Shown here in pieces: positions 8,289 through 59,420 of a stretch of DNA of 64,000 bases (position 1 is the first letter of the stretch; the number at the start of each line of letters is the position of its first letter). Position numbers and translations under genes: made by a program. A model generated the notes under the pieces. That model did no database searches. It had not been told where the DNA came from and saw only the letters and a list, made by a program, of their open reading frames with translations. Origin of the DNA: Blastocystis sp. Blastoise (lineage: Eukaryota; Protista; Bigyra: Opalinata); NCBI GenBank assembly GCA_039096225.1, contig JBBPEB010000004.1, positions 868,001 to 932,000 on the forward strand, written 5' to 3'.

Positions 8289-9224
8289 GTGTGGCATTAA
8301 TATTAAATTTATTAAATATTTCATTTTCATTGACAGGAGTAGAATTAGTATTTGTATAATTGCTATTATTATTATTATTACCACTCTTAACACTACTAGT
8401 ACTTGCAGGTGCTGTATCTCCTCTGAAAGAACTCGTTTGAACAGAAGAAGAAGAAGAAGAAACTGAAGTCATTCTATTAGCGTTATTTGTAGAAGAAGGA
8501 GAAGTAATAGGTGCTCCTGTGACCATTTTACTCACTATATTTACAGCTGAAGATATATAAGCTGCAGGAGCATAAGAAGAAGTAGAAGTAGATGAAGAAG
8601 GAGGATTATATACAGGAGCTGAACCTGTCTTTAACCATTTTGCATGATATTCCTATGAATTGAGGTATCGTTAATAACAAATAATGAATATCTTATTATT
8701 ATTAGGATTATAATTCAAATAAATATTGATATATTTATATGATGAATAATGAATAGATACTTTAAGTTGATCTATTAATTGTTCTACTGTTGCAAAGCAT
8801 TCAGTTCTCACGTTATCATCAGCATCCCAAAGAAGAGGACATAGAGCGGGTAATAACTTTGTAGCTAAGAAATGTCCATCATAAAAGTGTTTATTGATGG
8901 AAATAGCCTTAAGAGATTGTTCTCTTGTTTTCGGGAAAACATCACGTAAACCACGACCAATACAGGGAAATATACTTTGTTTACGAACAACTTCATTTAC
9001 AGAAGATGCAATGCGACCTAGACAAATAATAACATTGGTTCTAATGGCGGGAAGAGGGTCTTGTTGAAGGAGGGAAAGCATTTGAACACATTTCACTTGA
9101 TTTCCATCATTTAATTTACCTGCTAAGGAGAGCATAGAACGAATTGTTACTTCTTTCATTTTATTATTTGTATCTCTAAAATATATATATATATATATAT
9201 TTAGATATATAAATAAATGTATCT

Positions 9225-9255
<31 letters not shown>

Positions 9256-11379
9256 CGTAAATCCAGTACATATTTGATCAAATAATTTACTATTTAATTC
9301 ATGAGAAGATAATTGGTTAATATAAGAATCAATATTTTCTAATAAAAGAACACGAGTTGCACGATCCTTTCGAGAAAATAATGAAAATACACAGGGTGAT
9401 ACTAATTTACTAAATTGTTCGTCATTCATTGATTTTCCTATAAATAGAATACAAGGTAAAACATAGGGACCTAATTGAACATCCCCGTGGTAAACTTCAT
9501 CTTCTAATAAAGGTAAGATATATTCAATACATATAGTCTATATATATATAATGTTATATAAGATAAATTAAATAATAAAACAATATAAATCAGAAATTAT
9601 TATTTAAAAGAAAAGATTTAAAAATAACATACAGAGGGAAAAGAAGGTAAATATTTAATTAGTGACTGATAATAAACATATTTTTGTTCATTTTCTTTGA
9701 TACTCTTTTCATCCAAATATTGAATACATTTGACAAGTGGATGCTTTAAGAATGTAGATGAAATCAATTTACTAGGTGGAGGACGTGCCAAAGGAGCATT
9801 TTTACACTTATATATACTGCTATCAATCACGTGAGGGTGAGGGATTCCTTCGAATACTGTTTCCATTAAACTATAGAATGTAATCATATATATAAGAATA
9901 TGTAAATAGTATTTATAATGCAAAAGGTTATATATATATAAATAATCAAATGATATATATATATATATATATGATGAATAAATGGTAAATTTTATAATGC
10001 AAAAGGTTATGTATATATAAATAATCAAATGATATATATACATAATGAATACAAAAAAATAAATATTCATATATAAACAATTAAATAATAATAATAATAA
10101 TAATATATATACATAATGAATACAAAAAAATAAATATTCATATATAAACAATTAAATAATAATAATATATATACCATCCCAAGGCATAACTATCAACAAT
10201 ACAACTATTACATTCATTGATAAGCTTATAATCACGATTATTTAATTCAGGACAAATATATGATGAAATCTGCTTATCAATATTACTCCTAAATAAATAG
10301 AAAAAAAAAGAAATAGGTGATATATTTATATTTATATAATATATAAAAATAAATAAATGTATATATATACGTAAAATAAGCAGGTGGTAATTCATCTTGT
10401 TTATAATCATATAACATATCAAAACAACCCAATTTCCACATACCATTTTTAGTGACAAAAACACTGTTTTCATTAATAAATCCATGAATATGTTTTGTAT
10501 CTTCATTAATAAATTGAAGGCAAGAACAAATGTTATATAAACCAACCATTATCCAACTAACAAGTTGATCTCTATAAAGAAAAATAAATAAAAAGATAAA
10601 ATAAATAAAAATATAAAATAAATAAAAATATATAAAATAAATAAAAATATAAAATAAATAAAAATATAAAATAAAAAAAAATATATAAAATAAATAAAAA
10701 TATAAAATAAATAAAAATATAACATAAAAAAAAATATAAAATAAATAAAAATATAAAATAAATAAAAATATAAAATAAATAAAAATATAAAATAAAAATA
10801 TACTCTTCAATTTTGTCAGGGATCAGATAATTAATAGGATTTGCATTATCTTTCTTTTCTTTTCCAGTTGCAAATTGTAGCCATCTCTTTAAAGGAATAC
10901 AAGCTTCAGTAATCTATATACATAATAATAATAAAATATAGCATAACAAATAATTCGAATAGTAACTAATTATATAATTACTTAATTATTTTAAAGATTA
11001 CATGAAGAATAAAAAATAAATATATAAATACATAGAAAACACCTTTATCTGATTCATTTCCATTAATGTACTTTAATACTGCAGGATGTCTGAATGTTTT
11101 GATTCTCTTTAAACTAAAAACATATATTAAAACATTATCAACATAAATACAAATGAAATAGAACATATAAACATACGCATTTTCAGCAGTAGTTGTACGA
11201 ACTCCAGTTTTAAAGAGACAACATTCTGAATTATCAGTTTTATTCTTTCCATACGATAATTCCCATCCGAAATCACTCGTAAATGCACGTTCAGGTTGAG
11301 AAAATTCATAATCACTCATGAATGCAGTATCCGTCGAAGCAGTACCACTACCTACAAGATAATTCAATACACGTAACAT
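6776..11379 (-). CDS. SCYL1: SCY1-like pseudokinase (N-terminal kinase-like domain + HEAT repeats + acidic tail)
   Basis: KRIKTFRHPAVLKY; HIHGFINENSVFVTKNGMWKLG; LFSRKDRATRVLLLENID; DPLPAIRTNVIICLGRIA; RGLRDVFPKTR; C-terminal DGWDDED/DGWSDD repeats. The final spliced exon gives W then TAA (6776-6778). Confidence 0.9.
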
Positions 11380-21461: not shown

Positions 21462-37374
<15,913 letters not shown>

Positions 37375-40685: not shown

Positions 40686-41091
40686 TTCTTCATAAATAAA
40701 TGATATATGAAACAAAAGATTTATGATTGAAATATTTCTGCTGAAAAGAACAAAAGATATTGTAAAATATCTGTACATTTATATATATATTCCCATATTA
40801 TGTACCTGGAGGGCACCGACAATTTGTCGAAGAAAGCACTACGAGTTTTCTGAAAATCTTCTCATTTTTCCCTACAATAATCAAAAATTCCCGGAAGAAA
40901 AGATTTACATATCCCCAAGAATGTCCGTTAAAGACCCTAATATACAATACTTCCCATTTTCTCTTTCACTTTTTATTATAGCAAAAGGAGTTTAGGCAGT
41001 ATCTATTAGACAACTGACATCTCTTGGTATTTTACGCTAATGTTCTTGTTCGATTACCGATCACTATCACTATGGACATTTTTTCAGGTTT

Positions 41092-41300
41092 CTGTCAAAA
41101 GGTCCAACGACTTTTTTGTTTTGGTTTCCCCAGTGGTGAGCAGTGAAAATTTTTAAATATGTAGCTGACAAAAGGTTATTTGATTTTTCTGTTTGGTTTC
41201 CCCAGTGGTGGAGCAGTGAAAAAATTTTAAAGGGTAGCTGACAAAAGGTCCAACGACTTTTTTGCTTTGGTTTCCCCAGTGGTGAGCAGTGAAATTTTTT
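41092..41300 (+). repeat. CACTA subterminal direct repeats (also ~49668-49876)
   Basis: Three copies of TTTGGTTTCCCCAGTGGTG(G)AGCAGTGAAA, each preceded by (G)CTG(A/T)CAAAAGGT, with a period of ~74 bp. Confidence 0.85.
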
Positions 41301-41588
41301 GTCAGAGTTTCAGTGATTTTATAAAATCGAAAAGCAGTGCAAAAGTATGACGCACCTTAAAACAATAATTGGCGAATAAAAATGGTTTTAAATATTCTCT
41401 ATTTTTTCATTTATTGGTTTTTTTATTCTTTTTGTGGTGTAATAATAAACGATATAACAAAACAAACAAATTAAATATTATCAAATAATCATAAAAACAA
41501 ATAATAGAAAACAATAATAATAAATATATAAAAAAAAGATAATAAAACATATAATAAATAATATAATAAAATATATATAATATTTAAT

Positions 41589-42259
41589 TTATAATATTTC
41601 AACCAGGACAGTTTCAGTCTTTAATTTGCATTTAAGCCTAAGCAACCTATATAAAGAGATGATATTAATTAACTAGTACTATTAGTAATATATATAACAT
41701 TTTAAAATAATAATAAAATAAAAATATATACCTTTTATTGAAGCCATTACTAGAAAAAGCAAGGACCAAAGGCAAGGAACCATCCTATAAAAGATATATT
41801 AAATAGTATAAGTAATAAAAAGGAATATAATTAATATATATACATACCTTTGATAAGCCATTCTCTCCAATTAACAACAACGACAGCAACGGAACCCCCG
41901 GAAACCTATATAAAGATAGAGTAAGTTATATAATATAATAATATATAATAAAGTAAATTAATATAGAATAATAAAATATAAATATATACATTACTGCTAT
42001 ATAAATATAAAGTGGGGTTAGTTATATAATATGTAATAGATAATATAGATGATATATACCTTCTTTTAACATTGATTCCTTCCATTCTAGACCTAAAGAA
42101 CCCATCTATAAGAGAGCCACGACCACACAAAAGAAGGACCAGAACGTTTAAGGAGACCAGCAAGTGTCAAAACACCAAGCAGAGACAGCTACTATAGAAA
42201 AATGAATGAATAGAGTAGAAAAAATAAAATATAAAGAAACAGCAAACACCTACCATCAT
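41589..42259 (-). other. Spliced cargo unit inside CACTA copy A (5 exons), coding status ambiguous
   Basis: GC-richer exons bounded by AG/GT: ..42254, 42188-42060, 41905-41848, 41784-41732, 41646-.. They are separated by AT-rich introns with GTAGGT/GTATAT/GTATGT donors and TAG acceptors. Confidence 0.65.
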
Positions 42260-44099
42260 AATAGTATCATATATAATAAAATAAAAATAAAATTTAATAA
42301 TATATCATATTAATCATATAAGATATAATAAAATAAATATGTGATAAGTCATGTAGCATTTTGTTTTGTTATAAAAGGGTGTAATAGGAATTTAGAAGAT
42401 ATAGCTGAAATAATGAAAATAAACATGAATAATCTCATATCTACTAAATATAGAGAATCTTCATCATAAGAAAAATGAATGGTTAAGAATAAAAGAGAAA
42501 GAAAAATTTTATTTCTATGAGGAAAATGGATATTGTTATTGTTATTTTCAATTTATCATAATTATCATAAGTAATACAAAAATTGTTTTATTTTAAAGAA
42601 TTATATAGTTATTTATCATTATATCATTTTATAATCAGTTTTGACTATGGAAGAGTGATTTTTATCCTTAATTGTCAAAATTATTTTTAGTATCACTCAG
42701 TAAGTATAAGTCTTTTAAAAAATAAATATAGGTTACAATACAGACTTATAGAGAAGACTCTGAAACTTCTATTTCCAGAATAAAAGTCATTTATATAATC
42801 CAGAATGATTGCCTGAATCATTATTTAAAGAATCAGTTTTATCACATATCTTCAATAAAATTATAAAATAAAGAAAATGAAGATAAAAAGGTCTAGAGTC
42901 GAAAAATGTTATGAAATATTATCTTTTTAATGTATTTGTCCCGATTTTTTATTAATCTGTTATCATAATATGACAAAGAGAGTGGTAAAAACATTTTAAA
43001 AGTGAATTAAAGCAATAATTGGAATCAAGTTAAAGTCTTCTAATACCTTTAAATAGACTTGAAATACATAGAGTAAGCATTTTTTCATGCAAATAGTGTT
43101 TTTCATTTAAATAATATCAAAAACAAATCAAAATAGTATTTTATAATTACTCAGCAAGAACTTTTTCTAGTATTCAAGGACTTACTATTATCAAATATAC
43201 GTATAAACAAACAAAAATCATATTTTATATATTTTTAGTTGAATAGTCGGAGTCGTGTTGATAGTTTATTATAAAACAAATGCAAAAATCACTTTTTTGT
43301 CAAAAAAAGTCTTATATCGATATATAGTTTTATTCATAATTTATTTATTGTCTACAAACTCTGTGTATTCATTTTAAGTGATTTTTAGTAAAACTAAAAT
43401 TATTTGAAATACATATTCTAATTTCGAAAATGACAAAAACATATTATATTACATATTTAGTGTTTAAATGAAGTTTAAAAGTTATTAAAATATCAATTAG
43501 TTAAAAAATATAAAATATTGAGAATCTCCATTTTTATGACTTGTCTTAAATCACGTTAAAGGTGTATAATTGAATAGTTGCATTGATTATTTGTATGATT
43601 CTAGTAATATTTTCTAAGAATTTTGTTTTTTAACAAGAATAAATTCTTAATTTATTGTTTATCAACTTAAAAATGTATTTAAATGATTATTTTCTTGTGT
43701 AAAAGGGTATAGTGGTTATATGAAAAAAAAATTACGCAGAATCATTTGATAATATAATTTTGAAAAATGAGAATTATTATTTTGAACTAAACTAATTTTT
43801 CACATATACTCATTATAAAACGACTTGAATAATCTTTTGAGAAGATTATTTTGTTTTATAATACACTTAAGAAGTAATTGAATGTTATTGTGTCTCTTTT
43901 TGTTAAAAAGATTATTTTGAATGCTATTTTTGATTGATCTATATATTATCAATGCATTCAATGATGAAATAAATACATATGTAAAGAAAAAATAGTAATT
44001 GATCTAATTTATCTTCATCTATTTGAATAGATAATTTTTGAAAAAATTAATATAATATAATTATTGATACCTATATATAAAGAATTAGTTATGTAATTG

Positions 44100-44168
44100 A
44101 CCTTAAGACAGGAATTGAACCTGTTTTCTATCATAAACTGATAGATACTTACCAATATAAGCTTAAGG
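44100..44168 (-). ncRNA. tRNA-like cloverleaf (non-canonical; nominal anticodon TTT) in CACTA copy A
   Basis: Minus strand CCTTAAG-CT-TAT ATTGGTAA GTA-T-CTATC AGTTTAT GATAG-AAA-ACAGG TTCAATT CCTGT-CTTAAGG-T. Acceptor stem 7/7, anticodon stem 5/5, T stem 5/5, D-loop GG, B-box-like GGTTCAATTCC. Confidence 0.75.
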
Positions 44169-44199
44169 ATAATATAGAATAAAAATACATAAATGAAAG

Positions 44200-45911
44200 T
44201 AAAATAGTAGGAATAATGAGTCAGTATGATGTGTAAGGATATATTTATATATGTATAAGTGAAAAAGGATGCTAGAAGAAGGGAAAAGAAGTAAAAAAGA
44301 ATAAAAGAGAAAGAAATATAAAGTAAATGAGATAGGGTCTTTAATTATTGAGATTAATAAAAAAAATGAAAAATAATTTATAATAAATGACAAAGATAGA
44401 TATATAGAGATCTATAATAATAAGGAATGCAGAAGAGAAGAGGATTAGAGGATAAAGAATAAGAAGAAGATAAGGAAGATAAGGAAGAAGATAAGGAAGA
44501 TAAGGAAGAATAAGAAGAAGATAAGGAAGAAGATAAGGAAGATAAGGAAGAATAAGAAGAAGATAAGGAAGAATAAGAAGAAGAAAAGAAGAATAGGAAG
44601 AAGATAAGGAAGATAAGGAAGAAGAAGAAAAGAAGAATAGGAAGAAGATAAGGAAGAAGAAGAAGAATAGGAAGAAGAATAAGAAGATAAGGAAGAATAA
44701 GAAGAATAAGAAGATAAGGAAGATAAGGAAGAAGAAGAAGAAGATAAGGAAGAAGAAGAAAAGAAGAATAGGAAGAAGAAAAAGAAAAGAAGAATAGGAA
44801 GAAGATAAGGAAGAAGAAGAAGAATAGGAAGAAGAATAAGAAGATAAGGAAGATAAGGAAGAATAAGAAGAAGATAAGGAAGAAGAAGAAAAGAAGAATA
44901 GGAAGAAGATAAGGAAGAAGAAGAAGAATAGGAAGAAGAATAAGAAGATAAGGAAGATAAGGAAGAATAAGAAGAAGGAAATGAATAATGACAACAAGAA
45001 GATGAAGAATAAATAGAATAATGATAAGAAAGAATAAATAGATTAATAAGAGAACAAGAGGATGAATGTGAAGAAGAGACAAGGAAGGAGGTGAAAAAAA
45101 GAAAGAAAAGTAAGATAAAGAATAGGAAGAAGATATACAAGAAAATGAAGAAGAAGAGAAAGAAAAGAAAAGAAGAATAAACAAGAAACATATATAGAGA
45201 AACAGAAAGATATAAAGAAATAAAAGAGATAGATAGATAGATAGATAGATAGAGAGAAAAAAAAATACAAAGATATAAATAGATAGATACACTAATAGAT
45301 GAATAGAAAGAAAGAAGAAAAGAGAGACATAAAGAAGAAATTAGATAGAAAGAGATAGAATTCTATATAGAATGAGAGATATACAAAAGAAATCAAATGA
45401 AATAGAGAATAAGATAAAAATAGATACAAGAATAAAGATAAAAAGAGAAATAGAGGAGTAGGGAAGGTGTATAAAAAAGAAAGAATATAAAGATAGGTAG
45501 AGAGGAATTGAGAAGGATAGAGAAGGAGGAGGAAAACAGATAGAATTGGAAGACGAAGAAAAGAAGATGAGACGAAGAAGGGAGAAAAAAGGAGCAGGAA
45601 GTGAATATCAAGAAAGATAAATTTATATAGAAAAAAATTAGAAAGAAAAATACATACAAAGAAAACGATAGGGAATGATAGAGAGAATTATAATTTGAAT
45701 GACATAGAGAGAAGGAGAGACAAAGCAAGATAAAGAAGTATAATAGAAAAAACAAAGAAGAAAAAAAGAAGAATAAAAAAAGAAAAGATAGAACAATAGT
45801 ATATGAGAGAAGAAAGAGACAGAAAGAAAACGGGAAATAGGGTAGAGACATAGAAGGTAATAAAATATATAGAAGGGGAGAGGGGATTGAGATAAATAAA
45901 TAGATAGATAT

Positions 45912-45980
<69 letters not shown>

Positions 45981-48023
45981 GATAGAAGAATACCGAAAGA
46001 TATAGAGAAGGAGATAAATATTAATAAAAAGGAAAATATGGATAGAGAGGAGATAGAATCAAACAGAGAAGGAGAAGTAGATAAAAGTCGATTGAGGGAA
46101 GAGAGAAGTAGATTAAAATAAAAACAAATAGCAAGAGTTAAAAGGAAGAAGGGAAGAATATAGAATGATTTGAAGAATGAGATGTATATAGAAGTGAATA
46201 GAAGGAAATAGAGAAGGAGAAGTAGATAGAAAAGATTAAAAATAGAAGGAGATAGAAAGATAAGAGAATGATATAGATACAATAGAATGAGATAGAGAAG
46301 ATAAAGTAGATAGAAATGGATAGAAATAAGAAAAATAAATAGGATAAGAGAGAAAGAGAGATAAAAGGATATAAAAGGATATAGAAGGAGAGAAAACGGA
46401 TTGAGATGTAGTAAGATGGAAGGATGTAGATGGAAATAGAGAAGTAGATAGAAGATGATGGAGAATAAAGAGGAGATAGAAGAGGAGATAGAAGGAGAAA
46501 AAGAAGAAGAGGAAGTAAATTAAGTTAGAAGGAGATATAATAAGATAGAGAAGTAGATATACGTAGATATAAGGAAATATACGAAGATATAAGTAGATAA
46601 GAGAAAATAGAAGGAAATAGAGAATGAGATTGAGACACATAAATGAGGTAGAATGAGATAGATAAGGATAGAGAAATATGAAGAGAAATATAGGAATACA
46701 GAGAGATAGAATGATGTTGAAAGAGAAAGAAAAGGAAAGACTGAAGATTGAGACAGAAGGAGTAGCTGAGATAAAAGGAAGATAGAGAAGGAAATTGAAA
46801 GATGAAGGAAGAAGGAGAGAAGATGAAAGAAGAAGAATATAGAAGAAGATAGAGAATGAGATAATAGGGATAGAAAGAGAAAAATAGGAAAAAAGATGGT
46901 TAGAAGAAAATAGAAAAGGAGAAAGAAGGAGAGATAGAAGGAGAAATAGAAGGATATAAAAGAGATTAAGAAAGAAGTTAGAGACAAGAAGATATAGATA
47001 TATAGAAAGAAATAAAAGGATTAAATAGAAGATTAATAGGAAATAAATAGGAGACATATAGAAGATTAAGATAGAAGAAAAGAGACAAAATAGAAGTAGA
47101 TATAACAATATAGAGAATGAAAGGATAGAAATAAAAATAGAAAATAGATAACTAGAACATAAGAATATATAATAATAGAGAGAAGGAGAGAGAGAAGAAA
47201 AAGTAGATATAAAGTGGAAAAGGAGACATAGAAGGAAATATAAAAGGAAACAAGAAGGTAGAAAGAGACATATAAGATAAAATAGACAGGGACAGAGAGA
47301 AATAAATGGAAAAAGAATAAGGATAAAGATGGATACGAGAATAGAGAGGGAGAGAAGGAAGATTGAGATAGAATTATACAGAAAGAGGAGAGAAGGAAGA
47401 TAAAGAAGGAAAATAGGGCAGTAAAAAAAAGGGAATCAGAAGGAGGAGAGAAGAAGTATGAGAAGAATAGAAAGAAGGAAGAGGAGGAAGGCAAATAATA
47501 GAAGAGAACTATATATATAATAAATAGTGATATAAATATAAATAAGAAGATGAAGATCTGAAAAAAGCAAAGAATTATATGGAGAAGAAGAAGAAGAAGA
47601 AGAGGAAGAGGAAGAAAAGGAGGGTATACACTAATACATGTCGAGGAAAAAGAAGTATAGAATAAGGAGAAGAGGATAACAGGATAAAAGAAAAAGACAT
47701 AACGAAATACAATGTAAATAGAATAGTGATTAAGAAAGAGTAATGAAAGAGTGATATAAAAGGGAAGCGAAGATAAGAGAGAGGTATAATTAAAAAAAAG
47801 AAAAATAAAGGAATTTAGATAGAAGAAAAAATAAAAGAAAAATGAAGATCTGAGGAAGATAATGAATCAAAGGGAGAGACAAGGATATAGGCTGGAGACA
47901 AGGCATAGGAAGAAGTAATAAAGAAAGAAGATGAAGAAATAAGGAGATAAAAGTGTAGAAGGAAGAAAATGAAGAAGAGAGAAGAAGGAATCATTTTGTG
48001 TAAGAAGAAGAAATAAAGAAGAA
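44200..48023. repeat. ~3.8-kb purine-rich (+)/pyrimidine-rich (-) low-complexity tract, with a GAAGATAAG/GAAGAATAR minisatellite (~44450-44980) and (GATA)n (~45900-45980)
   Basis: The + strand is almost all A/G with sparse T and very few C. The overlapping minus-strand F/L/S 'ORFs' in several frames are a compositional artefact. Confidence 0.9.
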
Positions 48024-48517
48024 CTAGATAATAAATAAATAAATAAATAAATAAATAAACATACCTAATAGAAAAAAATGAATTTGGTGATGTTGAGTCA
48101 TAGGGAAAGATAACCAACAGAAACAGTAGAAAACAACCTAAATAAATAAATAATAATAAATAAAAATATAAAAATAATGAAAATAAATAATAAAATGAAT
48201 TAGATTCTAATTTAAGAAAAAACAAAAAGAAAGCTAATAATAGATAGAATGAATATACGATAAGTACTCTATTATATAATACTTAAAAATATAACAAAGA
48301 AAAAAATTAGAGATAATTATAAAAATAAATAAATACATATATACTTTGAAAGTAGTTTGACATCATAGACGTTGTTGACATGGACTGAAGAGGACTCTTA
48401 TAACCATGGACGAGCAGGAACCTATACATGCTAGAGAATGGGAGAATGTTAATATTGATAAAGAATAAAAAATAGTAATATACATACAAGAGAATAATCT
48501 GAAGTTAAAATCAACTT
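48023..48517 (-). other. Putative 5' spliced exons of a CACTA-internal transcript (copy A; copy B ~56595-57089)
   Basis: AG/GT-bounded blocks at 48517-48488, 48421-48345 and 48137-48065, then an acceptor opening an exon at 48023 that runs into the pyrimidine tract. Confidence 0.55.
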
Positions 48518-50164
48518 CTATTTTTTAAAATAACAGCTAATAAAAATAAAATAAAAATAAAGAAAATAAGTAACAAATGAAAATATTTTCTAAGTTAATA
48601 GGCTCAATAGCGTATGGGTGTATTCAGGTCTTAAAAGAAAAATCATTTTTGCGGGAATATCAAGAAACTCAAAAAAAGTATTTTTTCCCTCCTTTTTTCA
48701 CTGTCACTTTTCTTTAATATTTTTGACTTTTTAGTATTAAAAACGATTCTTACAGGCATGTATAGAGACTCTATACCACTTTTGAGACTAAAAATCAAAT
48801 ATTTAAAAATGAGTGAAAATCTTGACTAGCAAGAAAAACAATTATGTGAAGCTGAGTATGTTGTGTATACACATATCTAACAACAGAGATGATAAAAACA
48901 CACAACTCCTCTTGGTTTAGGACATAATTATGAATTCTCTCAAAAAAGCTATTTTAAACCTTAAAACGATACCCTGAACTATAAATCAAGTCCTGAATGA
49001 TATTCTAAAGTCATATTTTTAAAAACAGGTTTAATGACGATAATCAATAAACAAAAACAAGAGCTTCCGTTTTACTTTTCTTTTTTGAATTTTTAATTGT
49101 TTTGACTTTCTAGGGTAGTTGGCTGAAAGAAATGTTGTCGTCTTTAGGCTAAAAAATGATGAATAAAAAAGTCAAGTCATTTTATTGTTTTTTCCTTGGG
49201 AAATAAAAAAGAAGAAATTTTTAGGTGTGTTTTGGTTTAGGCTGTATAATGGTTTTTATTGTAAAAGGACTTGACGAGAATGATTGAAATGATAATACAT
49301 CACTCAGAGAACACACAACTTTAAAAAATTTGTCACTCATGTAATCCATTCCTGAATTATAGACTTCAGAGAAAAAATTAAAGTCTTTTTGGTTTTAAAC
49401 AGTCATTTTAAATCATAAAACACTGTAAAATAGTCAATATTTAGAATGTCTATGATTATATAAATAAACAATATATTTTGTAGAGTTATTTTTAAGTTTT
49501 TCTCGTCAAAAAGAGAGAAACTTGACAAGTTGGCGGACACTCTTTTCTCGAGTTTAGGCCAACGTATTTTTGATTAAAAAATCCCAGTCATTTTGTTGTT
49601 TCTCTTACGGGAAATAGGGTCAAAAAAACACAAAATGTCCATAGTGTATGGACATTTTTTCAGGTTTCTGTCAAAAGGTCCAACGACTTTTTTGTTTTGG
49701 TTTCCCCAGTGGTGAGCAGTGAAAATTTTTAAATATGTAGCTGACAAAAGGTTATTTGATTTTTCTGTTTGGTTTCCCCAGTGGTGGAGCAGTGAAAAAA
49801 TTTTAAAGGGTAGCTGACAAAAGGTCCAACGACTTTTTTGCTTTGGTTTCCCCAGTGGTGAGCAGTGAAATTTTTTGTCAGAGTTTCAGTGATTTTATAA
49901 AATCGAAAAGCAGTGCAAAAGTATGACGCACCTTAAAACAATAATTGGCGAATAAAAATGGTTTTAAATATTCTCTATTTTTTCATTTATTGGTTTTTTT
50001 ATTCTTTTTGTGGTGTAATAATAAACGATATAACAAAACAAACAAATTAAATATTATCAAATAATCATAAAAACAAATAATAGAAAACAATAATAATAAA
50101 TATATAAAAAAAAGATAATAAAACATATAATAAATAATATAATAAAATATATATAATATTTAAT

Positions 50165-50835
50165 TTATAATATTTCAACCAGGACAGTTTCAGTCTTTAA
50201 TTTGCATTTAAGCCTAAGCAACCTATATAAAGAGATGATATTAATTAACTAGTACTATTAGTAATATATATAACATTTTAAAATAATAATAAAATAAAAA
50301 TATATACCTTTTATTGAAGCCATTACTAGAAAAAGCAAGGACCAAAGGCAAGGAACCATCCTATAAAAGATATATTAAATAGTATAAGTAATAAAAAGGA
50401 ATATAATTAATATATATACATACCTTTGATAAGCCATTCTCTCCAATTAACAACAACGACAGCAACGGAACCCCCGGAAACCTATATAAAGATAGAGTAA
50501 GTTATATAATATAATAATATATAATAAAGTAAATTAATATAGAATAATAAAATATAAATATATACATTACTGCTATATAAATATAAAGTGGGGTTAGTTA
50601 TATAATATGTAATAGATAATATAGATGATATATACCTTCTTTTAACATTGATTCCTTCCATTCTAGACCTAAAGAACCCATCTATAAGAGAGCCACGACC
50701 ACACAAAAGAAGGACCAGAACGTTTAAGGAGACCAGCAAGTGTCAAAACACCAAGCAGAGACAGCTACAATAGAAAATTGAATGAATAGAGTAGAAAAAA
50801 TAAAATATAAAGAAACAGCAAACACCTACCATCAT
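50165..50835 (-). other. Spliced cargo unit inside CACTA copy B
   Basis: Same exon structure as 41589-42259 (offset 8,576). Confidence 0.65.
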
Positions 50836-52675
50836 AATAGTATCATATATAATAAAATAAAAATAAAATTTAATAATATATCATATTAATCATATAAGAT
50901 ATAATAAAATAAATATGTGATAAGTCATGTAGCATTTTGTTTTGTTATAAAAGGGTGTAATAGGAATTTAGAAGATATAGCTGAAATAATGAAAATAAAC
51001 ATGAATAATCTCATATCTACTAAATATAGAGAATCTTCATCATAAGAAAAATGAATGGTTAAGAATAAAAGAGAAAGAAAAATTTTATTTCTATGAGGAA
51101 AATGGATATTGTTATTGTTATTTTCAATTTATCATAATTATCATAAGTAATACAAAAATTGTTTTATTTTAAAGAATTATATAGTTATTTATCATTATAT
51201 CATTTTATAATCAGTTTTGACTATGGAAGAGTGATTTTTATCCTTAATTGTCAAAATTATTTTTAGTATCACTCAGTAAGTATAAGTCTTTTAAAAAATA
51301 AATATAGGTTACAATACAGACTTATAGAGAAGACTCTGAAACTTCTATTTCCAGAATAAAAGTCATTTATATAATCCAGAATGATTGCCTGAATCATTAT
51401 TTAAAGAATCAGTTTTATCACATATCTTCAATAAAATTATAAAATAAAGAAAATGAAGATAAAAAGGTCTAGAGTCGAAAAATGTTATGAAATATTATCT
51501 TTTTAATGTATTTGTCCCGATTTTTTATTAATCTGTTATCATAATATGACAAAGAGAGTGGTAAAAACATTTTAAAAGTGAATTAAAGCAATAATTGGAA
51601 TCAAGTTAAAGTCTTCTAATACCTTTAAATAGACTTGAAATACATAGAGTAAGCATTTTTTCATGCAAATAGTGTTTTTCATTTAAATAATATCAAAAAC
51701 AAATCAAAATAGTATTTTATAATTACTCAGCAAGAACTTTTTCTAGTATTCAAGGACTTACTATTATCAAATATACGTATAAACAAACAAAAATCATATT
51801 TTATATATTTTTAGTTGAATAGTCGGAGTCGTGTTGATAGTTTATTATAAAACAAATGCAAAAATCACTTTTTTGTCAAAAAAAGTCTTATATCGATATA
51901 TAGTTTTATTCATAATTTATTTATTGTCTACAAACTCTGTGTATTCATTTTAAGTGATTTTTAGTAAAACTAAAATTATTTGAAATACATATTCTAATTT
52001 CGAAAATGACAAAAACATATTATATTACATATTTAGTGTTTAAATGAAGTTTAAAAGTTATTAAAATATCAATTAGTTAAAAAATATAAAATATTGAGAA
52101 TCTCCATTTTTATGACTTGTCTTAAATCACGTTAAAGGTGTATAATTGAATAGTTGCATTGATTATTTGTATGATTCTAGTAATATTTTCTAAGAATTTT
52201 GTTTTTTAACAAGAATAAATTCTTAATTTATTGTTTATCAACTTAAAAATGTATTTAAATGATTATTTTCTTGTGTAAAAGGGTATAGTGGTTATATGAA
52301 AAAAAAATTACGCAGAATCATTTGATAATATAATTTTGAAAAATGAGAATTATTATTTTGAACTAAACTAATTTTTCACATATACTCATTATAAAACGAC
52401 TTGAATAATCTTTTGAGAAGATTATTTTGTTTTATAATACACTTAAGAAGTAATTGAATGTTATTGTGTCTCTTTTTGTTAAAAAGATTATTTTGAATGC
52501 TATTTTTGATTGATCTATATATTATCAATGCATTCAATGATGAAATAAATACATATGTAAAGAAAAAATAGTAATTGATCTAATTTATCTTCATCTATTT
52601 GAATAGATAATTTTTGAAAAAATTAATATAATATAATTATTGATACCTATATATAAAGAATTAGTTATGTAATTG

Positions 52676-52744
52676 ACCTTAAGACAGGAATTGAACCTGT
52701 TTTCTATCATAAACTGATAGATACTTACCAATATAAGCTTAAGG
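52676..52744 (-). ncRNA. tRNA-like cloverleaf in CACTA copy B
   Basis: Identical to 44100-44168. Confidence 0.75.
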
Positions 52745-52775
52745 ATAATATAGAATAAAAATACATAAATGAAAG

Positions 52776-54486
52776 TAAAATAGTAGGAATAATGAGTCAG
52801 TATGATGTGTAAGGATATATTTATATATGTATAAGTGAAAAAGGATGCTAGAAGAAGGGAAAAGAAGTAAAAAAGAATAAAAGAGAAAGAAATATAAAGT
52901 AAATGAGATAGGGTCTTTAATTATTGAGATTAATAAAAAAAATGAAAAATAATTTATAATAAATGACAAAGATAGATATATAGAGATCTATAATAATAAG
53001 GAATGCAGAAGAGAAGAGGATTAGAGGATAAAGAATAAGAAGAAGATAAGGAAGATAAGGAAGAAGATAAGGAAGATAAGGAAGAATAAGAAGAAGATAA
53101 GGAAGAAGATAAGGAAGATAAGGAAGAATAAGAAGAAGATAAGGAAGAATAAGAAGAAGAAAAGAAGAATAGGAAGAAGATAAGGAAGATAAGGAAGAAG
53201 AAGAAAAGAAGAATAGGAAGAAGATAAGGAAGAAGAAGAAGAATAGGAAGAAGAATAAGAAGATAAGGAAGAATAAGAAGAATAAGAAGATAAGGAAGAT
53301 AAGGAAGAAGAAGAAGAAGATAAGGAAGAAGAAGAAAAGAAGAATAGGAAGAAGAAAAAGAAAAGAAGAATAGGAAGAAGATAAGGAAGAAGAAGAAGAA
53401 TAGGAAGAAGAATAAGAAGATAAGGAAGATAAGGAAGAATAAGAAGAAGATAAGGAAGAAGAAGAAAAGAAGAATAGGAAGAAGATAAGGAAGAAGAAGA
53501 AGAATAGGAAGAAGAATAAGAAGATAAGGAAGATAAGGAAGAATAAGAAGAAGGAAATGAATAATGACAACAAGAAGATGAAGAATAAATAGAATAATGA
53601 TAAGAAAGAATAAATAGATTAATAAGAGAACAAGAGGATGAATGTGAAGAAGAGACAAGGAAGGAGGTGAAAAAAAGAAAGAAAAGTAAGATAAAGAATA
53701 GGAAGAAGATATACAAGAAAATGAAGAAGAAGAGAAAGAAAAGAAAAGAAGAATAAACAAGAAACATATATAGAGAAACAGAAAGATATAAAGAAATAAA
53801 AGAGATAGATAGATAGATAGATAGATAGAGAGAAAAAAAATACAAAGATATAAATAGATAGATACACTAATAGATGAATAGAAAGAAAGAAGAAAAGAGA
53901 GACATAAAGAAGAAATTAGATAGAAAGAGATAGAATTCTATATAGAATGAGAGATATACAAAAGAAATCAAATGAAATAGAGAATAAGATAAAAATAGAT
54001 ACAAGAATAAAGATAAAAAGAGAAATAGAGGAGTAGGGAAGGTGTATAAAAAAGAAAGAATATAAAGATAGGTAGAGAGGAATTGAGAAGGATAGAGAAG
54101 GAGGAGGAAAACAGATAGAATTGGAAGACGAAGAAAAGAAGATGAGACGAAGAAGGGAGAAAAAAGGAGCAGGAAGTGAATATCAAGAAAGATAAATTTA
54201 TATAGAAAAAAATTAGAAAGAAAAATACATACAAAGAAAACGATAGGGAATGATAGAGAGAATTATAATTTGAATGACATAGAGAGAAGGAGAGACAAAG
54301 CAAGATAAAGAAGTATAATAGAAAAAACAAAGAAGAAAAAAAGAAGAATAAAAAAAGAAAAGATAGAACAATAGTATATGAGAGAAGAAAGAGACAGAAA
54401 GAAAACGGGAAATAGGGTAGAGACATAGAAGGTAATAAAATATATAGAAGGGGAGAGGGGATTGAGATAAATAAATAGATAGATAT

Positions 54487-54555
<69 letters not shown>

Positions 54556-56595
54556 GATAGAAGAATACCGAAAGATATAGAGAAGGAGATAAATATTAAT
54601 AAAAAGGAAAATATGGATAGAGAGGAGATAGAATCAAACAGAGAAGGAGAAGTAGATAAAAGTCGATTGAGGGAAGAGAGAAGTAGATTAAAATAAAAAC
54701 AAATAGCAAGAGTTAAAAGGAAGAAGGGAAGAATATAGAATGATTTGAAGAATGAGATGTATATAGAAGTGAATAGAAGGAAATAGAGAAGGAGAAGTAG
54801 ATAGAAAAGATTAAAAATAGAAGGAGATAGAAAGATAAGAGAATGATATAGATACAATAGAATGAGATAGAGAAGATAAAGTAGATAGAAATGGATAGAA
54901 ATAAGAAAAATAAATAGGATAAGAGAGAAAGAGAGATAAAAGGATATAAAAGGATATAGAAGGAGAGAAAACGGATTGAGATGTAGTAAGATGGAAGGAT
55001 GTAGATGGAAATAGAGAAGTAGATAGAAGATGATGGAGAATAAAGAGGAGATAGAAGAGGAGATAGAAGGAGAAAAAGAAGAAGAGGAAGTAAATTAAGT
55101 TAGAAGGAGATATAATAAGATAGAGAAGTAGATATACGTAGATATAAGGAAATATACGAAGATATAAGTAGATAAGAGAAAATAGAAGGAAATAGAGAAT
55201 GAGATTGAGACACATAAATGAGGTAGAATGAGATAGATAAGGATAGAGAAATATGAAGAGAAATATAGGAATACAGAGAGATAGAATGATGTTGAAAGAG
55301 AAAGAAAAGGAAAGACTGAAGATTGAGACAGAAGGAGTAGCTGAGATAAAAGGAAGATAGAGAAGGAAATTGAAAGATGAAGGAAGAAGGAGAGAAGATG
55401 AAAGAAGAAGAATATAGAAGAAGATAGAGAATGAGATAATAGGGATAGAAAGAGAAAAATAGGAAAAAAGATGGTTAGAAGAAAATAGAAAAGGAGAAAG
55501 AAGGAGAGATAGAAGGAGAAATAGAAGGATATAAAAGAGATTAAGAAAGAAGTTAGAGACAAGAAGATATAGATATATAGAAAGAAATAAAAGGATTAAA
55601 TAGAAGATTAATAGGAAATAAATAGGAGACATATAGAAGATTAAGATAGAAGAAAAGAGACAAAATAGAAGTAGATATAACAATATAGAGAATGAAAGGA
55701 TAGAAATAAAAATAGAAAATAGATAACTAGAACATAAGAATATATAATAATAGAGAGAAGGAGAGAGAGAAGAAAAAGTAGATATAAAGTGGAAAAGGAG
55801 ACATAGAAGGAAATATAAAAGGAAACAAGAAGGTAGAAAGAGACATATAAGATAAAATAGACAGGGACAGAGAGAAATAAATGGAAAAAGAATAAGGATA
55901 AAGATGGATACGAGAATAGAGAGGGAGAGAAGGAAGATTGAGATAGAATTATACAGAAAGAGGAGAGAAGGAAGATAAAGAAGGAAAATAGGGCAGTAAA
56001 AAAAAGGGAATCAGAAGGAGGAGAGAAGAAGTATGAGAAGAATAGAAAGAAGGAAGAGGAGGAAGGCAAATAATAGAAGAGAACTATATATATAATAAAT
56101 AGTGATATAAATATAAATAAGAAGATGAAGATCTGAAAAAAGCAAAGAATTATATGGAGAAGAAGAAGAAGAAGAGGAAGAGGAAGAAAAGGAGGGTATA
56201 CACTAATACATGTCGAGGAAAAAGAAGTATAGAATAAGGAGAAGAGGATAACAGGATAAAAGAAAAAGACATAACGAAATACAATGTAAATAGAATAGTG
56301 ATTAAGAAAGAGTAATGAAAGAGTGATATAAAAGGGAAGCGAAGATAAGAGAGAGGTATAATTAAAAAAAAGAAAAATAAAGGAATTTAGATAGAAGAAA
56401 AAATAAAAGAAAAATGAAGATCTGAGGAAGATAATGAATCAAAGGGAGAGACAAGGATATAGGCTGGAGACAAGGCATAGGAAGAAGTAATAAAGAAAGA
56501 AGATGAAGAAATAAGGAGATAAAAGTGTAGAAGGAAGAAAATGAAGAAGAGAGAAGAAGGAATCATTTTGTGTAAGAAGAAGAAATAAAGAAGAA
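52776..56595. repeat. Purine-rich low-complexity tract in CACTA copy B
   Basis: Near-identical to 44200-48023, with small repeat-length differences. Confidence 0.9.
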
Positions 56596-59420
56596 CTAGA
56601 TAATAAATAAATAAATAAATAAATAAATAAACATACCTAATAGAAAAAAATGAATTTGGTGATGTTGAGTCATAGGGAAAGATAACCAACAGAAACAGTA
56701 GAAAACAACCTAAATAAATAAATAATAATAAATAAAAATATAAAAATAATGAAAATAAATAATAAAATGAATTAGATTCTAATTTAAGAAAAAACAAAAA
56801 GAAAGCTAATAATAGATAGAATGAATATACGATAAGTACTCTATTATATAATACTTAAAAATATAACAAAGAAAAAAATTAGAGATAATTATAAAAATAA
56901 ATAAATACATATATACTTTGAAAGTAGTTTGACATCATAGACGTTGTTGACATGGACTGAAGAGGACTCTTATAACCATGGACGAGCAGGAACCTATACA
57001 TGCTAGAGAATGGGAGAATGTTAATATTGATAAAGAATAAAAAATAGTAATATACATACAAGAGAATAATCTGAAGTTAAAATCAACTTCTATTTTTTAA
57101 AATAACAGCTAATAAAAATAAAATAAAAATAAAGAAAATAAGTAACAAATGAAAATATTTTCTAAGTTAATAGGCTCAATAGCGTATGGGTGTATTCAGG
57201 TCTTAAAAGAAAAATCATTTTTGCGGGAATATCAAGAAACTCAAAAAAAGTATTTTTTCCCTCCTTTTTTCACTGTCACTTTTCTTTAATATTTTTGACT
57301 TTTTAGTATTAAAAACGATTCTTACAGGCATGTATAGAGACTCTATACCACTTTTGAGACTAAAAATCAAATATTTAAAAATGAGTGAAAAATCTTGACT
57401 AGCAAGAAAAACAATTATGTGAAGCTGAGTATGTTGTGTATACACATATCTAACAACAGAGATGATAAAAACACACAACTCCTCTTGGTTTAGGACATAA
57501 TTATGAATTCTCTCAAAAAAGCTATTTTAAACCTTAAAACGATACCCTGAACTATAAATCAAGTCCTGAATGATATTCTAAAGTCATATTTTTAAAAACA
57601 GGTTTAATGACGATAATCAATAAACAAAAACAAGAGCTTCCGTTTTACTTTTCTTTTTTGAATTTTTAATTGTTTTGACTTTCTAGGGTAGTTGGCTGAA
57701 AGAAATGTTGTCGTCTTTAGGCTAAAAAATGATGAATAAAAAAGTCAAGTCATTTTATTGTTTTTTCCTTGGGAAATAAAAAAGAAGAAATTTTTAGGTG
57801 TGTTTTGGTTTAGGCTGTATAATGGTTTTTATTGTAAAAGGACTTGACGAGAATGATTGAAATGATAATACATCACTCAGAGAACACACAACTTTAAAAA
57901 ATTTGTCACTCATGTAATCCATTCCTGAATTATAGACTTCAGAGAAAAAATTAAAGTCTTTTTGGTTTTAAACAGTCATTTTAAATCATAAAACACTGTA
58001 AAATAGTCAATATTTAGAATGTCTATGATTATATAAATAAACAATATATTTTGTAGAGTTATTTTTAAGTTTTTCTCGTCAAAAAGAGAGAAACTTGACA
58101 AGTTGGCGGACACTCTTTTCTCGAGTTTAGGCCAACGTATTTTTGATTAAAAAATCCCAGTCATTTTGTTGTTTCTCTTACGGGAAATAGGGTCAAAAAA
58201 ACACAAAATGTCCATAGTGGATTGAACTCTTTCTAAACACTTGGGTTATAGTGTTTATCTTTGTATAAAATAGATTGCTGTTTACTTCATATATTCAGTT
58301 TTCTCTCTGGAATTCTAGATTTAAAAAGATATCTTTTAATCATCTGATTAATACTGTCAATAAGTAAATATTACTGTATACAAATAGTTAAGATTTTCAT
58401 GATACTAGTGATTGTTCAAATATGATTGCTATTAGTTTTCAGAAAAAAAAACTGACAAAACCAAAGAAAAATATTAAATAAATGATACTACGAATTTTGC
58501 AATAAATAAAAACAATAGTATAGAAATAACTTTAAAAATGATATCGACACATATAGAATATTTTAACTAATACAAAAGAAAATATATGTACAACTGGTTA
58601 ATTAGTAAAAAAAAAGTAATTATATAACAAATAAAGAAAATGAAATGAGATATATCGCTATAATGGAATGAAAATGAAGAAATCATATAAAAGAGAAAGA
58701 ATAATATATAATGAAAAAATATATAATCTTTATATAGTATAGAAAAGTAAAAGAATCTAATTGAATGAAATCAAAAAGAAATCTAGACCATATAGATATA
58801 AAAATATAAATTATTAATATATATATATCTATAGGTGATATTCACAATTCAGAAATATATATATATATTAAAAATAAGGAACTATAGATTACAAAAATAT
58901 ATGAATTATTTAGTGTGTATAATAATACACATGAATCAGAAGAATAATATATATAGAACATAAGAGAAAGGGTACAAGAAGAGGTTTGAAATAAAAGAAA
59001 ATAGATATTTATTGAGCTTAAAAATTAGGAAAAAAAAATAAAAAGAAAAGCATCATATAAATAATAAAATGAAATTATATTTTTGGAAAAGAAATAGTGA
59101 TATATATACTATAAAAAGTGTTCATTAAAAAATATAAGCAAATATAATGAATTTAAATAAGAGATATAAACATATACATAGAAAGAAAGAAATTACTTAA
59201 AAAGTAACAAACAAGAATATATATATATATAAATGAATAATAGAAAATGGTACAATAAATAATGAAAAATAATAAAGAAACTACAGAAACATATTCTAAG
59301 AGATTCTATGTATGTATATATATACAATATATAATGAATAATGAATAGATAATATTTCCCTTTATATGAATATTCATATCATATTAAAAGCAACAATTGA
59401 TATATATATAATAGTATGCA

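What the first reader, a model, noticed from the sequence alone, without database searches (positions are those of the whole stretch)
44100..44168. A DNA transposon carries a compact tRNA-like cloverleaf
Seen: a 69-nt minus-strand fold with perfect acceptor (CCTTAAG/CTTAAGG), anticodon (CTATC/GATAG, extendable to 7 bp around GTTTA) and T (ACAGG/CCTGT) stems. It has a TTCAATT loop and D-loop GG, but C8, G33 and a 3-nt variable loop. It is present in both copies. Knowledge: elbow plus acceptor stem are what RNase P/Z recognise, and U8/U33 are near-invariant in decoding tRNAs. Inference: a tRNA mimic (processing signal, Pol III/TFIIIC box or insulator) rather than a decayed tRNA, because the stems are intact while decoding features are lost. 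The loop also contains TTA, so a UAA-reading role linked to the TAR-rich cargo is conceivable, but the geometry is non-canonical.
Basis: partly seen in the sequence, partly recalled or inferred. Interest (0 to 1): 0.78.

Follow-up and report, generated by a model that had tools for sequence, protein, structure and literature searches.

The report
tRNA mimic riding a protist transposon
A recently jumping DNA transposon in the tortoise gut protist Blastocystis carries a 69-base sequence predicted to fold like a shrunken tRNA that likely cannot read codons, and it would most likely serve as a cut-here signal for the host's tRNA-trimming enzymes, though no cutting or small RNA has been shown.

Summary
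The cloverleaf is real: 44100-44168 (-), identical at 52676-52744; z -4.4; Rfam tRNA 23.3 bits (cut-off 29); 0 like it in 97 Mb of simulated DNA. It lies in an 8.6-kb CACTA/EnSpm-type element with no transposase found (CAC..GTG ends, 3-bp duplications); one copy sits inside the other's end. The host is Blastocystis sp. Blastoise. Nineteen Watson-Crick pairs are intact despite at least two deletions, which fits selection on RNA shape better than decay. One diverged relative appears conserved over the 3' half (indirect; no covariation seen). The UAA-reading idea is rejected: standard code, TAR spread evenly over three frames, TTA cannot be the anticodon. Best reading (0.45): an RNase P/Z-cut tRNA mimic in a minus-strand transcript. 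It is not a mascRNA-family member. No processing is shown. The scan noted a similar idea before in a mussel transposon (unchecked).

The parts
44100..44168 (-). tRNA-like cloverleaf, copy 1. Predicted fold: acceptor 1-7/62-68, D hairpin 8-21 with no linker, 2-nt link, 7-bp anticodon-arm stem with 5-nt loop (24-42), 2-nt link, T arm 45-61, discriminator U; no encoded CCA
52676..52744 (-). tRNA-like cloverleaf, copy 2, identical
44111..44121 (-). T-arm / B-box motif GGTTCAATTCC; no consensus A box upstream
   Evidence: motif GGTTCRANYCC as in PMC1920247
41068..49646 (.). Inner copy of an 8579-bp CACTA/EnSpm-type element with no transposase found; 15-bp perfect terminal inverted repeats CACTATGGACATTTT; 3-bp duplication TAT (41065-41067, 49647-49649)
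41062..58219 (.). Outer copy (41062-41067 plus 49647-58219), split in its left terminal repeat by the inner copy; 3-bp duplication GAT (41059-41061, 58220-58222)
41092..41310 (+). Three 73-bp subterminal repeats at the left end
44200..48050 (-). Pyrimidine-rich (minus) / purine-rich (plus) low-complexity tract directly upstream of the cloverleaf; frame-switching Ser/Leu/Ile/Tyr/Phe-rich reading frames on the minus strand; no homologue found
44071..44188 (-). Candidate 118-nt host-type intron (GTATTT..TATATAG) that would enclose the cloverleaf; prediction only
   Evidence: donor 8.7, acceptor 10.0, host ranges 6.6-12.2 and 3.3-12.1; sites scoring over 4 or 5 occur 43 and 31 times in 8.5 kb
43939..43976 (-). 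Candidate 38-nt minus-strand intron (GTATTT..ATATAG); a contig of run X1 skips 38 nt one base off this place
   Evidence: one contig, depth 2
43201..43238 (+). 38-nt GT..AG intron skipped in a contig of run X1 that is otherwise identical to the window: plus-strand spliced transcript, antisense in direction to the cloverleaf
44041..44046 (-). First run of 4 or more T downstream (T6, 53 nt after the cloverleaf): possible Pol III terminator
41590..42093 (-). Chain of four short, GC-richer (32-47%) exon-like blocks with host-type splice motifs near the left end; no annotated protein or homologue found

Best explanation
The 69-nt sequence is likely a tRNA-derived structural mimic, predicted to fold with a tRNA-type acceptor, T arm and elbow but no working anticodon, that would be cut out of a longer minus-strand transcript of the transposon's cargo by the host's RNase P and RNase Z. 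Shown: the sequence, its stems and T-loop consensus, its place inside a recently mobile CACTA/EnSpm-type element, spliced low-level contigs from the neighbouring cargo, and RNase P and RNase Z domains in the host's annotated proteome. Inferred: L-shaped folding through D-loop GG with the T loop; origin from a tRNA by loss of the 8-10 connector and shrinkage of the anticodon loop; selection on RNA shape. Untested: minus-strand transcription across it, cleavage at 44168 and 44100, CCA addition, and what the cut does (ending or destroying the 4-kb upstream pyrimidine-rich RNA, blocking splicing of an enclosing intron, or releasing a small RNA). Whether the function belongs to the transposon or to a host locus it captured is open.
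For: Fold z -4.43, stable with flanks. 19 of 19 pairs Watson-Crick in acceptor, anticodon and T stems despite at least 2 deletions; neutral-decay P 0.004-0.0009. Architecture follows mascRNA/menRNA: D stem-loop starts at nt 8, longer anticodon stem with compact loop, linkers lost (PMC11693755, part 1 of 2 of the text); here 4 linker nt remain. [quoted passage not shown] No consensus A box, as for the Pol II-derived GUT15 tRNA-like RNA (PMC6152437 passages). A diverged contig in run X1 has 18 substitutions and 2 indels in the 81 nt 44018-44098, none listed in 44099-44105, and only 5 more to share between its two 30-nt end zones, one being 44106-44135; likelihood ratio for conservation about 11-165. 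Host annotation (Rus-B = Blastoise by equal genome size) lists Rpp21/29/30/38/40, a PRORP C-terminal domain, tRNase Z and ELAC2-like proteins.
Against: No small-RNA, end-mapping or strand data. No compensatory change seen: the two window copies are identical here and letters of the relative inside the cloverleaf were not displayed; if all 5 unlisted differences lie in the cloverleaf, conservation is not significant (5/37 vs 18/81, Fisher p 0.32). That same contig runs uncut and unspliced across the cloverleaf's 3' end and the predicted 3' splice site (its strand and RNA nature unknown). The only clean splice joint is on the plus strand. No A-rich tract or ENE upstream, no mascRNA-type Rfam hit at E<=10. 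In the MFE one D-loop G is paired, so the elbow needs the top two D pairs to open (3 kcal/mol). The cargo around it looks degenerate. The acceptor strands share a palindromic CTTAAG (chance 4-7%), which allows a non-selective origin for that stem.
Confidence: 0.45

Rival explanations
1. Passenger: a tRNA-like RNA or odd tRNA gene that was shaped by selection at some donor locus (host, organelle or virus) was captured with its flanks, Pack-CACTA style, and is now inert in the transposon.
For: Cargo has no transposase and no intact gene; Pack-CACTA elements carry chromosomal pieces (PMC6379663 passages); diverged relatives of the cargo exist in X1 (13-22% differences) and could be the donor. A degenerate tRNA with intact acceptor and T stems and an odd anticodon loop sits in a tRNA cluster in L061 (44.5 bits), so such forms occur in nature.
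Against: No stem damage in the window copies; apparent conservation in a relative about 22% diverged in the flank. No donor found in phages, viral contigs or prokaryote genomes.
Confidence: 0.27
2. A Pol III unit or TFIIIC-binding DNA element: the B box recruits TFIIIC (boundary, insertion or chromatin effect), or drives a roughly 125-nt transcript ending at the T6 run that is then trimmed to the cloverleaf.
For: Perfect B-box match and a T6 run 53 nt downstream; TFIIIC tauA domains in the host annotation.
Against: No consensus A box. A DNA-only box does not need paired acceptor or anticodon stems. The B-block-binding subunit domain is listed as 0 in this strain (and in 7 of 8 strains, likely a detection failure).
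Confidence: 0.12
3. An atypical but working tRNA-Lys(UUU) with a 6-bp anticodon stem, G33 and a short connector.
For: The only register with 5 of 5 stem pairs puts TTT at 34-36 followed by A37; ARAGORN at lowered threshold calls Lys; G33 tRNAs can decode at lower efficiency (PMC1991585 passages); a mitochondrial tRNA-Ser type with 1-nt connector and 6-bp anticodon stem is recalled, not checked here.
Against: 23.3 bits against 58-74 for 8 ordinary tRNAs in L061; the loop is predicted closed by two more pairs to 5 nt (0.97-1.0); no U8/R9, no A box; U discriminator.
Confidence: 0.07
4. Non-selective origin: a tRNA core (D arm to T arm) inserted with a palindromic 6-bp target duplication CTTAAG, or hairpins perfected by template switching, or plain chance in AT-rich DNA.
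For: CTTAAG is both a direct and an inverted repeat, and the 8-9 connector is missing; rescaled Rfam E-value is 0.27 per genome and the look-elsewhere count up to 0.2 over the whole scan.
Against: Needs the insert to end exactly at the T-stem and does not explain the 7-bp anticodon-arm stem; 0 of 97 Mb simulated; apparent conservation in a relative.
Confidence: 0.08
5. A UAA-reading (suppressor) tRNA serving a TAR-rich cargo gene.
For: TTA occurs in the loop; the plus strand of the purine tract holds many TAR triplets.
Against: Host code is standard (tortoise strains keep canonical stops, PMC10690189 abstract); TAR is equal in all three frames (102/117/105) and TGA is also frequent (18-25 per frame); the minus strand has far fewer stops (12-18 per frame); TTA register keeps 2 of 5 stem pairs.
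Confidence: 0.01

Closest known systems
mascRNA / menRNA (MALAT1, NEAT1/MEN-beta)
   Same: 7-bp acceptor, full T stem-loop, D-loop GG, D stem-loop starting at nt 8, longer anticodon-arm stem with compact U-rich loop, fewer junction linkers (PMC11693755; fold); lies downstream of a long low-coding region on the same strand.
   Different: 69 nt against 57-58; 4 linker nt remain; no upstream ENE or A-rich tract (requirement in PMC8457004 passages); no Rfam match to that family at E<=10; stramenopile, inside a mobile element; processing unshown.
Arabidopsis GUT15 tRNA-like RNA
   Same: Good B box, aberrant A box, non-canonical anticodon arm and acceptor-D junction; possible intronic position (PMC6152437 passages).
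   Different: GUT15 has extra rather than missing connector nucleotides, is in a fixed host lncRNA, and has demonstrated CCA addition; here intron and processing are predictions.
Plant mitochondrial t-elements
   Same: Carries the GGTTCRANYCC motif in a non-canonical cloverleaf that could set a 5' or 3' RNA end (PMC1920247 passages).
   Different: Nuclear, among spliceosomal genes; no mapped RNA end.
Pack-CACTA / non-autonomous EnSpm elements
   Same: CAC..GTG termini, 3-bp duplications (PMC12730594 passage), subterminal repeats, no transposase, closely linked direct-orientation copies (PMC6379663 passages).
   Different: In Blastocystis, whose strain table lists Tc1, MULE and Harbinger domains but no 'Spm' entry; the donor of the cargo was not identified; 'tRNA' does not occur in the Pack-CACTA paper's main text.
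tRNA-Cys repeats overlapping putative Helitrons in Arabidopsis
   Same: tRNA sequence proposed as transposon cargo (PMC10701932 passages).
   Different: Those are canonical tRNA genes and the Helitron call was not confirmed by that paper's own tools; here the element ends are clear and the RNA is non-canonical.

Membership tests
Canonical tRNA (Rfam RF00005) | Covariance-model score at or above the gathering cut-off (29 bits); ARAGORN call at default | tested here: not met
   23.3 bits; 0 genes
Canonical tRNA (Rfam RF00005) | 7-bp acceptor stacked on 5-bp T stem with TTCRANY loop and D-loop GG | tested here: met
Canonical tRNA (Rfam RF00005) | U8-R9 connector and normal core length | tested here: not met
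   CT at 8-9 and distance 44, against T-purine in 67 of 72 and distance 46-49 in 61 of 72 loci with the same T arm and a 7-pair acceptor
Canonical tRNA (Rfam RF00005) | 5-bp anticodon stem with open 7-nt loop and U33 | tested here: not met
   7-bp stem, 5-nt loop predicted; G33 in the only 5-of-5 register
Canonical tRNA (Rfam RF00005) | Aminoacylation and decoding | not testable with these tools
   needs experiment
mascRNA/menRNA | Match to the family's sequence-structure model | tested here: not met
   no such hit among 4 matches at E<=10 on the 151-nt stretch; that Rfam holds this family is recalled
mascRNA/menRNA | D stem-loop directly after the acceptor strand, long anticodon stem with compact loop, junction linkers lost | tested here: met
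   predicted fold only; 4 linker nt remain
mascRNA/menRNA | Upstream ENE and A-rich tract forming a triple helix | tested here: not met
   longest A run 3 nt in 200 nt upstream; last 30 nt hold 20 T and 7 A
mascRNA/menRNA | RNase P then RNase Z cleavage and CCA addition | not testable with these tools
   only contigs, no raw or small-RNA reads
GUT15-type intronic tRNA-like RNA | Lies in an intron of a Pol II transcript | tested here: inconclusive
   host-type donor and acceptor flank it but such sites are common and the one covering contig is unspliced
t-element | GGTTCRANYCC T-arm motif in a non-canonical cloverleaf | tested here: met
t-element | Organellar location with ends matching mapped mRNA termini | tested here: not met
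   nuclear context with spliceosomal introns; termini could not be mapped
CACTA/EnSpm (CMC) DNA transposon, non-autonomous | CAC..GTG terminal inverted repeats and 3-bp target-site duplication | tested here: met
   15-bp repeats; TAT and GAT duplications for the two copies
CACTA/EnSpm (CMC) DNA transposon, non-autonomous | Subterminal repeats | tested here: met
   three 73-bp repeats at one end
CACTA/EnSpm (CMC) DNA transposon, non-autonomous | A related autonomous element with an EnSpm transposase in the genome | not testable with these tools
   no genome held; no Pfam hit above cut-off in 100 of 121 element ORFs scanned; no 'Spm' row in the strain domain table
Pack-CACTA | Internal sequence traceable to host chromosomal loci | tested here: inconclusive
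   host-type splice motifs and diverged relatives, but no donor identified

The most novel reading that the evidence does not exclude
A family of Blastocystis CACTA-type transposons carries a conserved, independently evolved mascRNA-like tRNA mimic that recruits host RNase P/Z to cut the element's own transcripts and release a CCA-tailed small RNA: tRNA mimicry as a portable, transposon-borne RNA-processing module outside animals and plants.
Probability: 0.25. Interest if true: 0.75.

Novelty: new variant of a known kind. Interest (0 to 1): 0.5.

Why it matters
tRNA mimics that use RNase P/Z as processing signals are known from vertebrate lncRNAs, one plant lncRNA and plant mitochondria. A convergent, linker-poor version in a stramenopile, carried by an element that has moved recently, would show that this architecture arises repeatedly and can be spread by transposition, and would give a simple 69-nt substrate for testing what the two RNase P types annotated in this host recognise. 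If it is only a passenger, it still points to an undescribed tRNA-like RNA in Blastocystis and to a CACTA-type family not listed in the strain's domain table. It has no bearing on stop-codon reassignment.

Tried and rejected
Whole genome: none held, so no family alignment or covariation test. Sequencing runs: no RNA holder listed; one guessed-RNA run, X1, holds 0.64 of the words; X2 and X3 gave 1 and 0 laid records. Cover of the cloverleaf's 5' half is sparse and says nothing. Search for a donor: blastn against 50,697 phage records gave no match over 80% of the query, best E 0.2 among the 20 rows shown; acceptor-plus-B-box pattern gave 0 in viral contigs and 0 in prokaryote genomes; D-arm-plus-T-arm pattern 0 in viral contigs; the T arm alone is common in real tRNAs (119 loci from 4 of 64 parts of the metagenome set; 76 ARAGORN calls in 117 extracted matches, mostly Arg; 6 viral loci, none similar outside the T arm). 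L061 is the best look-alike but has a normal connector and a different acceptor; treated as convergence. Cargo identity: 0 Pfam hits above cut-off in 100 of 121 ORFs (21 low-complexity ORFs left out); 5 of 5 ORFs absent from the protein collection; no homologue for two ORFs; the one representative hit, P0004, is a repeat protein scoring by three weak stretches and was rejected. A 32-nt mini-intron inside the cloverleaf (GTAAGT..CAG) was rejected: donor 2.8, acceptor -4.5, and 15 of 15 mapped host introns start GTAT (my note saying 16 of 16 was a miscount). Transib was considered for the CACTATG end but its 5-bp duplication (PMC4411706 passages) is not met. Alternative genetic code rejected. 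Literature: four searches (listings only) showed no report of a tRNA-like element inside a terminal-repeat DNA transposon or in Blastocystis; the genome preprint's main text has 0 occurrences of 'tRNA'. The library lacks most subscription papers. PMC7954030 passages added nothing used.

Full report
Observation. It folds into a four-arm cloverleaf at -20.5 kcal/mol, z -4.43, with 0 of 200 shuffles as stable. ARAGORN at default finds nothing in the window and calls it tRNA-Lys(TTT) only at lowered thresholds that are noisy. Rfam's tRNA model aligns end to end at 23.3 bits, below the cut-off of 29, and misses it in a 22-kb scan. A descriptor asking for a consensus T loop on a 5-bp stem, a 7-bp acceptor, a 5-bp anticodon stem and a D-region GG finds only the two copies in the window and 0 matches in 97 Mb of simulated sequence (1 without the GG rule, 2 with G-U pairs allowed). 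An analytic estimate gives at most 8e-7 per window and 0.02-0.2 over a scan of 250,000 such windows; the Rfam E-value rescales to 0.27 per genome. Chance is unlikely but not nil.

Host. A reading frame at 8674-9159 is identical to a protein that NCBI names from Blastocystis sp. Blastoise, and 16 exon blocks of that protein map exactly onto the window. All 15 mapped introns begin GTAT and run 44-304 nt. A 3481-aa ORF has no TAA or TAG. The genome preprint (PMC10690189; abstract, passages, supplement 5 whole, supplement 7 by search) reports 21-23% GC, longer introns and canonical stop codons in tortoise strains, and does not mention tRNA in its main text.

Element. 41068-49646 and 49647-58219 are 99.9% identical, differing at 7 alignment columns. 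The ends are 15-bp perfect inverted repeats starting CACTA. The junctions read as two insertions: an outer copy with a GAT duplication, and an inner copy that landed in the outer copy's left repeat with a TAT duplication. CAC..GTG ends with 3-bp duplications are the criteria used for EnSpm in PMC12730594 (passage). Three 73-bp subterminal repeats lie at the left end. No ORF of the 100 scanned (of 121) reaches a Pfam cut-off, so the element is likely non-autonomous; its partner is unknown, and the strain's domain table has no 'Spm' row. Both copies moved as units recently, and their identity gives no covariation.

Cargo. The 3.8-kb purine tract upstream of the cloverleaf is not a TAR-reading gene. 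TAR triplets number 102, 117 and 105 in the three plus frames, TGA 18-25 per frame, while the minus strand has 12-18 stops per frame and patchy, frame-switching coding-like scores. No protein relative was found. Contigs of run X1 (RNA is the tool's guess) cover 29 of 30 bins of 42330-44335 at low depth. One, identical to the window, skips a plus-strand GT..AG intron at 43201-43238. Another skips 38 nt one base off a well-formed minus-strand intron at 43976-43939. So the cargo is spliced on the plus strand and possibly on the minus strand; nothing shows a transcript across the cloverleaf on its own strand.

Anatomy. The motif AGCTT..GG of an ordinary D arm overlaps the end of the acceptor strand, so I infer that U8-A9-G10 were lost and that 'C8' is the old C11. 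Among 116 metagenome matches to the same T arm, 72 have a 7-pair acceptor; 61 of these have 46-49 nt between acceptor start and T stem and 67 have T-purine at 8-9, against 44 nt and CT here. At least two deletions are therefore needed from a canonical tRNA, yet 19 of 19 pairs in the three main stems are Watson-Crick. With the substitution-to-indel ratio of 13 seen in two related contigs, neutral decay gives P 0.004 (two indels) or 0.0009 (three). That assumes a canonical ancestor. The architecture moves in the same direction as mascRNA and menRNA, whose crystal structures show a D stem-loop from nt 8, a longer anticodon stem with a compact loop, no linkers, and an elbow built from the D-loop GG and the T loop (PMC11693755, first of two parts read). 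[quoted passage not shown]

Conservation. X1 holds diverged relatives of the cargo (17 differences in 126 nt, 55 in 352, 23 in 149). The last covers 43987-44135, the 3' half of the cloverleaf and its downstream flank. Eighteen substitutions and 2 indels are listed in 44018-44098, the last two at 44097 and 44098, right beside the structure; none in 44099-44105. The table shows 40 of 85 rows and omits changes near contig ends; because rows of lower depth are shown, I read the 5 missing differences of this contig as lying in its two 30-nt end zones. That gives a likelihood ratio of 165 (local rate) or 11 (lower family rate) for conservation of the cloverleaf half, but p 0.32 if all 5 fall inside it. 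This is one contig at depth 2.9 and an indirect reading. The same contig is uncut and unspliced across the cloverleaf's 3' end, which counts against efficient processing if it is minus-strand RNA.

Mechanism. I commit, at 0.45, to a tRNA mimic that host RNase P and RNase Z would cut from a minus-strand transcript. There is no A-rich tract or ENE upstream, which MALAT1 needs for a stable end (PMC8457004 passages), so a cut would more likely end or destabilise the upstream RNA, or act inside an intron as for GUT15 (PMC6152437 passages); host-type splice sites at 44188 and 44071 would enclose it, though such sites are frequent. Rivals: an inert passenger shaped elsewhere (0.27), a Pol III/TFIIIC element (0.12), a non-selective or chance origin through the palindromic CTTAAG (0.08), an atypical tRNA-Lys (0.07; G33 precedent in PMC1991585 passages), a UAA reader (0.01; TTA register keeps 2 of 5 pairs).

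Membership and novelty. It is not a canonical tRNA (score, connector and anticodon loop fail) and not a mascRNA/menRNA family member (no model hit, no triple-helix module); it is predicted to work like them, and like t-elements (PMC1920247 passages). The carrier meets the structural marks of a non-autonomous CACTA/EnSpm element (Pack-CACTA comparison: PMC6379663 passages). Four literature searches (listings only) showed no such case; the nearest is canonical tRNA-Cys overlapping putative Helitrons (PMC10701932 passages). An unchecked note from this scan proposes a tRNA mimic in mussel transposon introns; it is a lead, not support. Verdict: a real, non-random tRNA-like structure, a new variant of a known kind in an unexpected carrier, with function unproven; interest 0.5.

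Noticed in passing
window 41059-41082, 49632-49661, 58205-58222: One transposon copy inserted into the terminal inverted repeat of an almost identical copy, each with its own 3-bp duplication: recent activity of a CACTA-type family although the strain's domain table lists no En/Spm entry.
   Followed up: yes
window 41590-42093 (-): Four short GC-richer exon-like blocks with host-type splice motifs whose phases allow one open frame of about 64 codons; no homologue or annotated protein found; splicing not examined.
   Followed up: partly
window 43201-43238 (+): Intron spliced in an X1 contig identical to the window, while a diverged relative differs at both terminal G positions (43201, 43238), so the splice sites are copy-specific: possible recent intron gain or loss.
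   Followed up: partly
window 44420-44990 and 45890-45980: Ser-rich-frame 9/12-nt repeat with 1-nt frameshifts shared by both copies, and an (ATAG)n microsatellite, inside the purine tract.
   Followed up: no
window 26205-36650 (-) and 21462-25961 (-): Two long intronless ORFs (3481 and 1499 aa) in an otherwise intron-rich genome; the first has an AAA_5 domain (midasin-like, name recalled) and is Asn-rich.
   Followed up: no
window 10530-10843: Tandem 17/19-nt repeat array inside an intron of the SCYL1-like gene (family name recalled).
   Followed up: no
L061 758-830 and about 230-296: A tRNA cluster in an AT-rich metagenome contig (giant-virus-like by its neighbouring repeat protein, my impression) includes a degenerate tRNA with intact acceptor and T stems but no clear anticodon, and a further partial tRNA-like piece.
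   Followed up: partly
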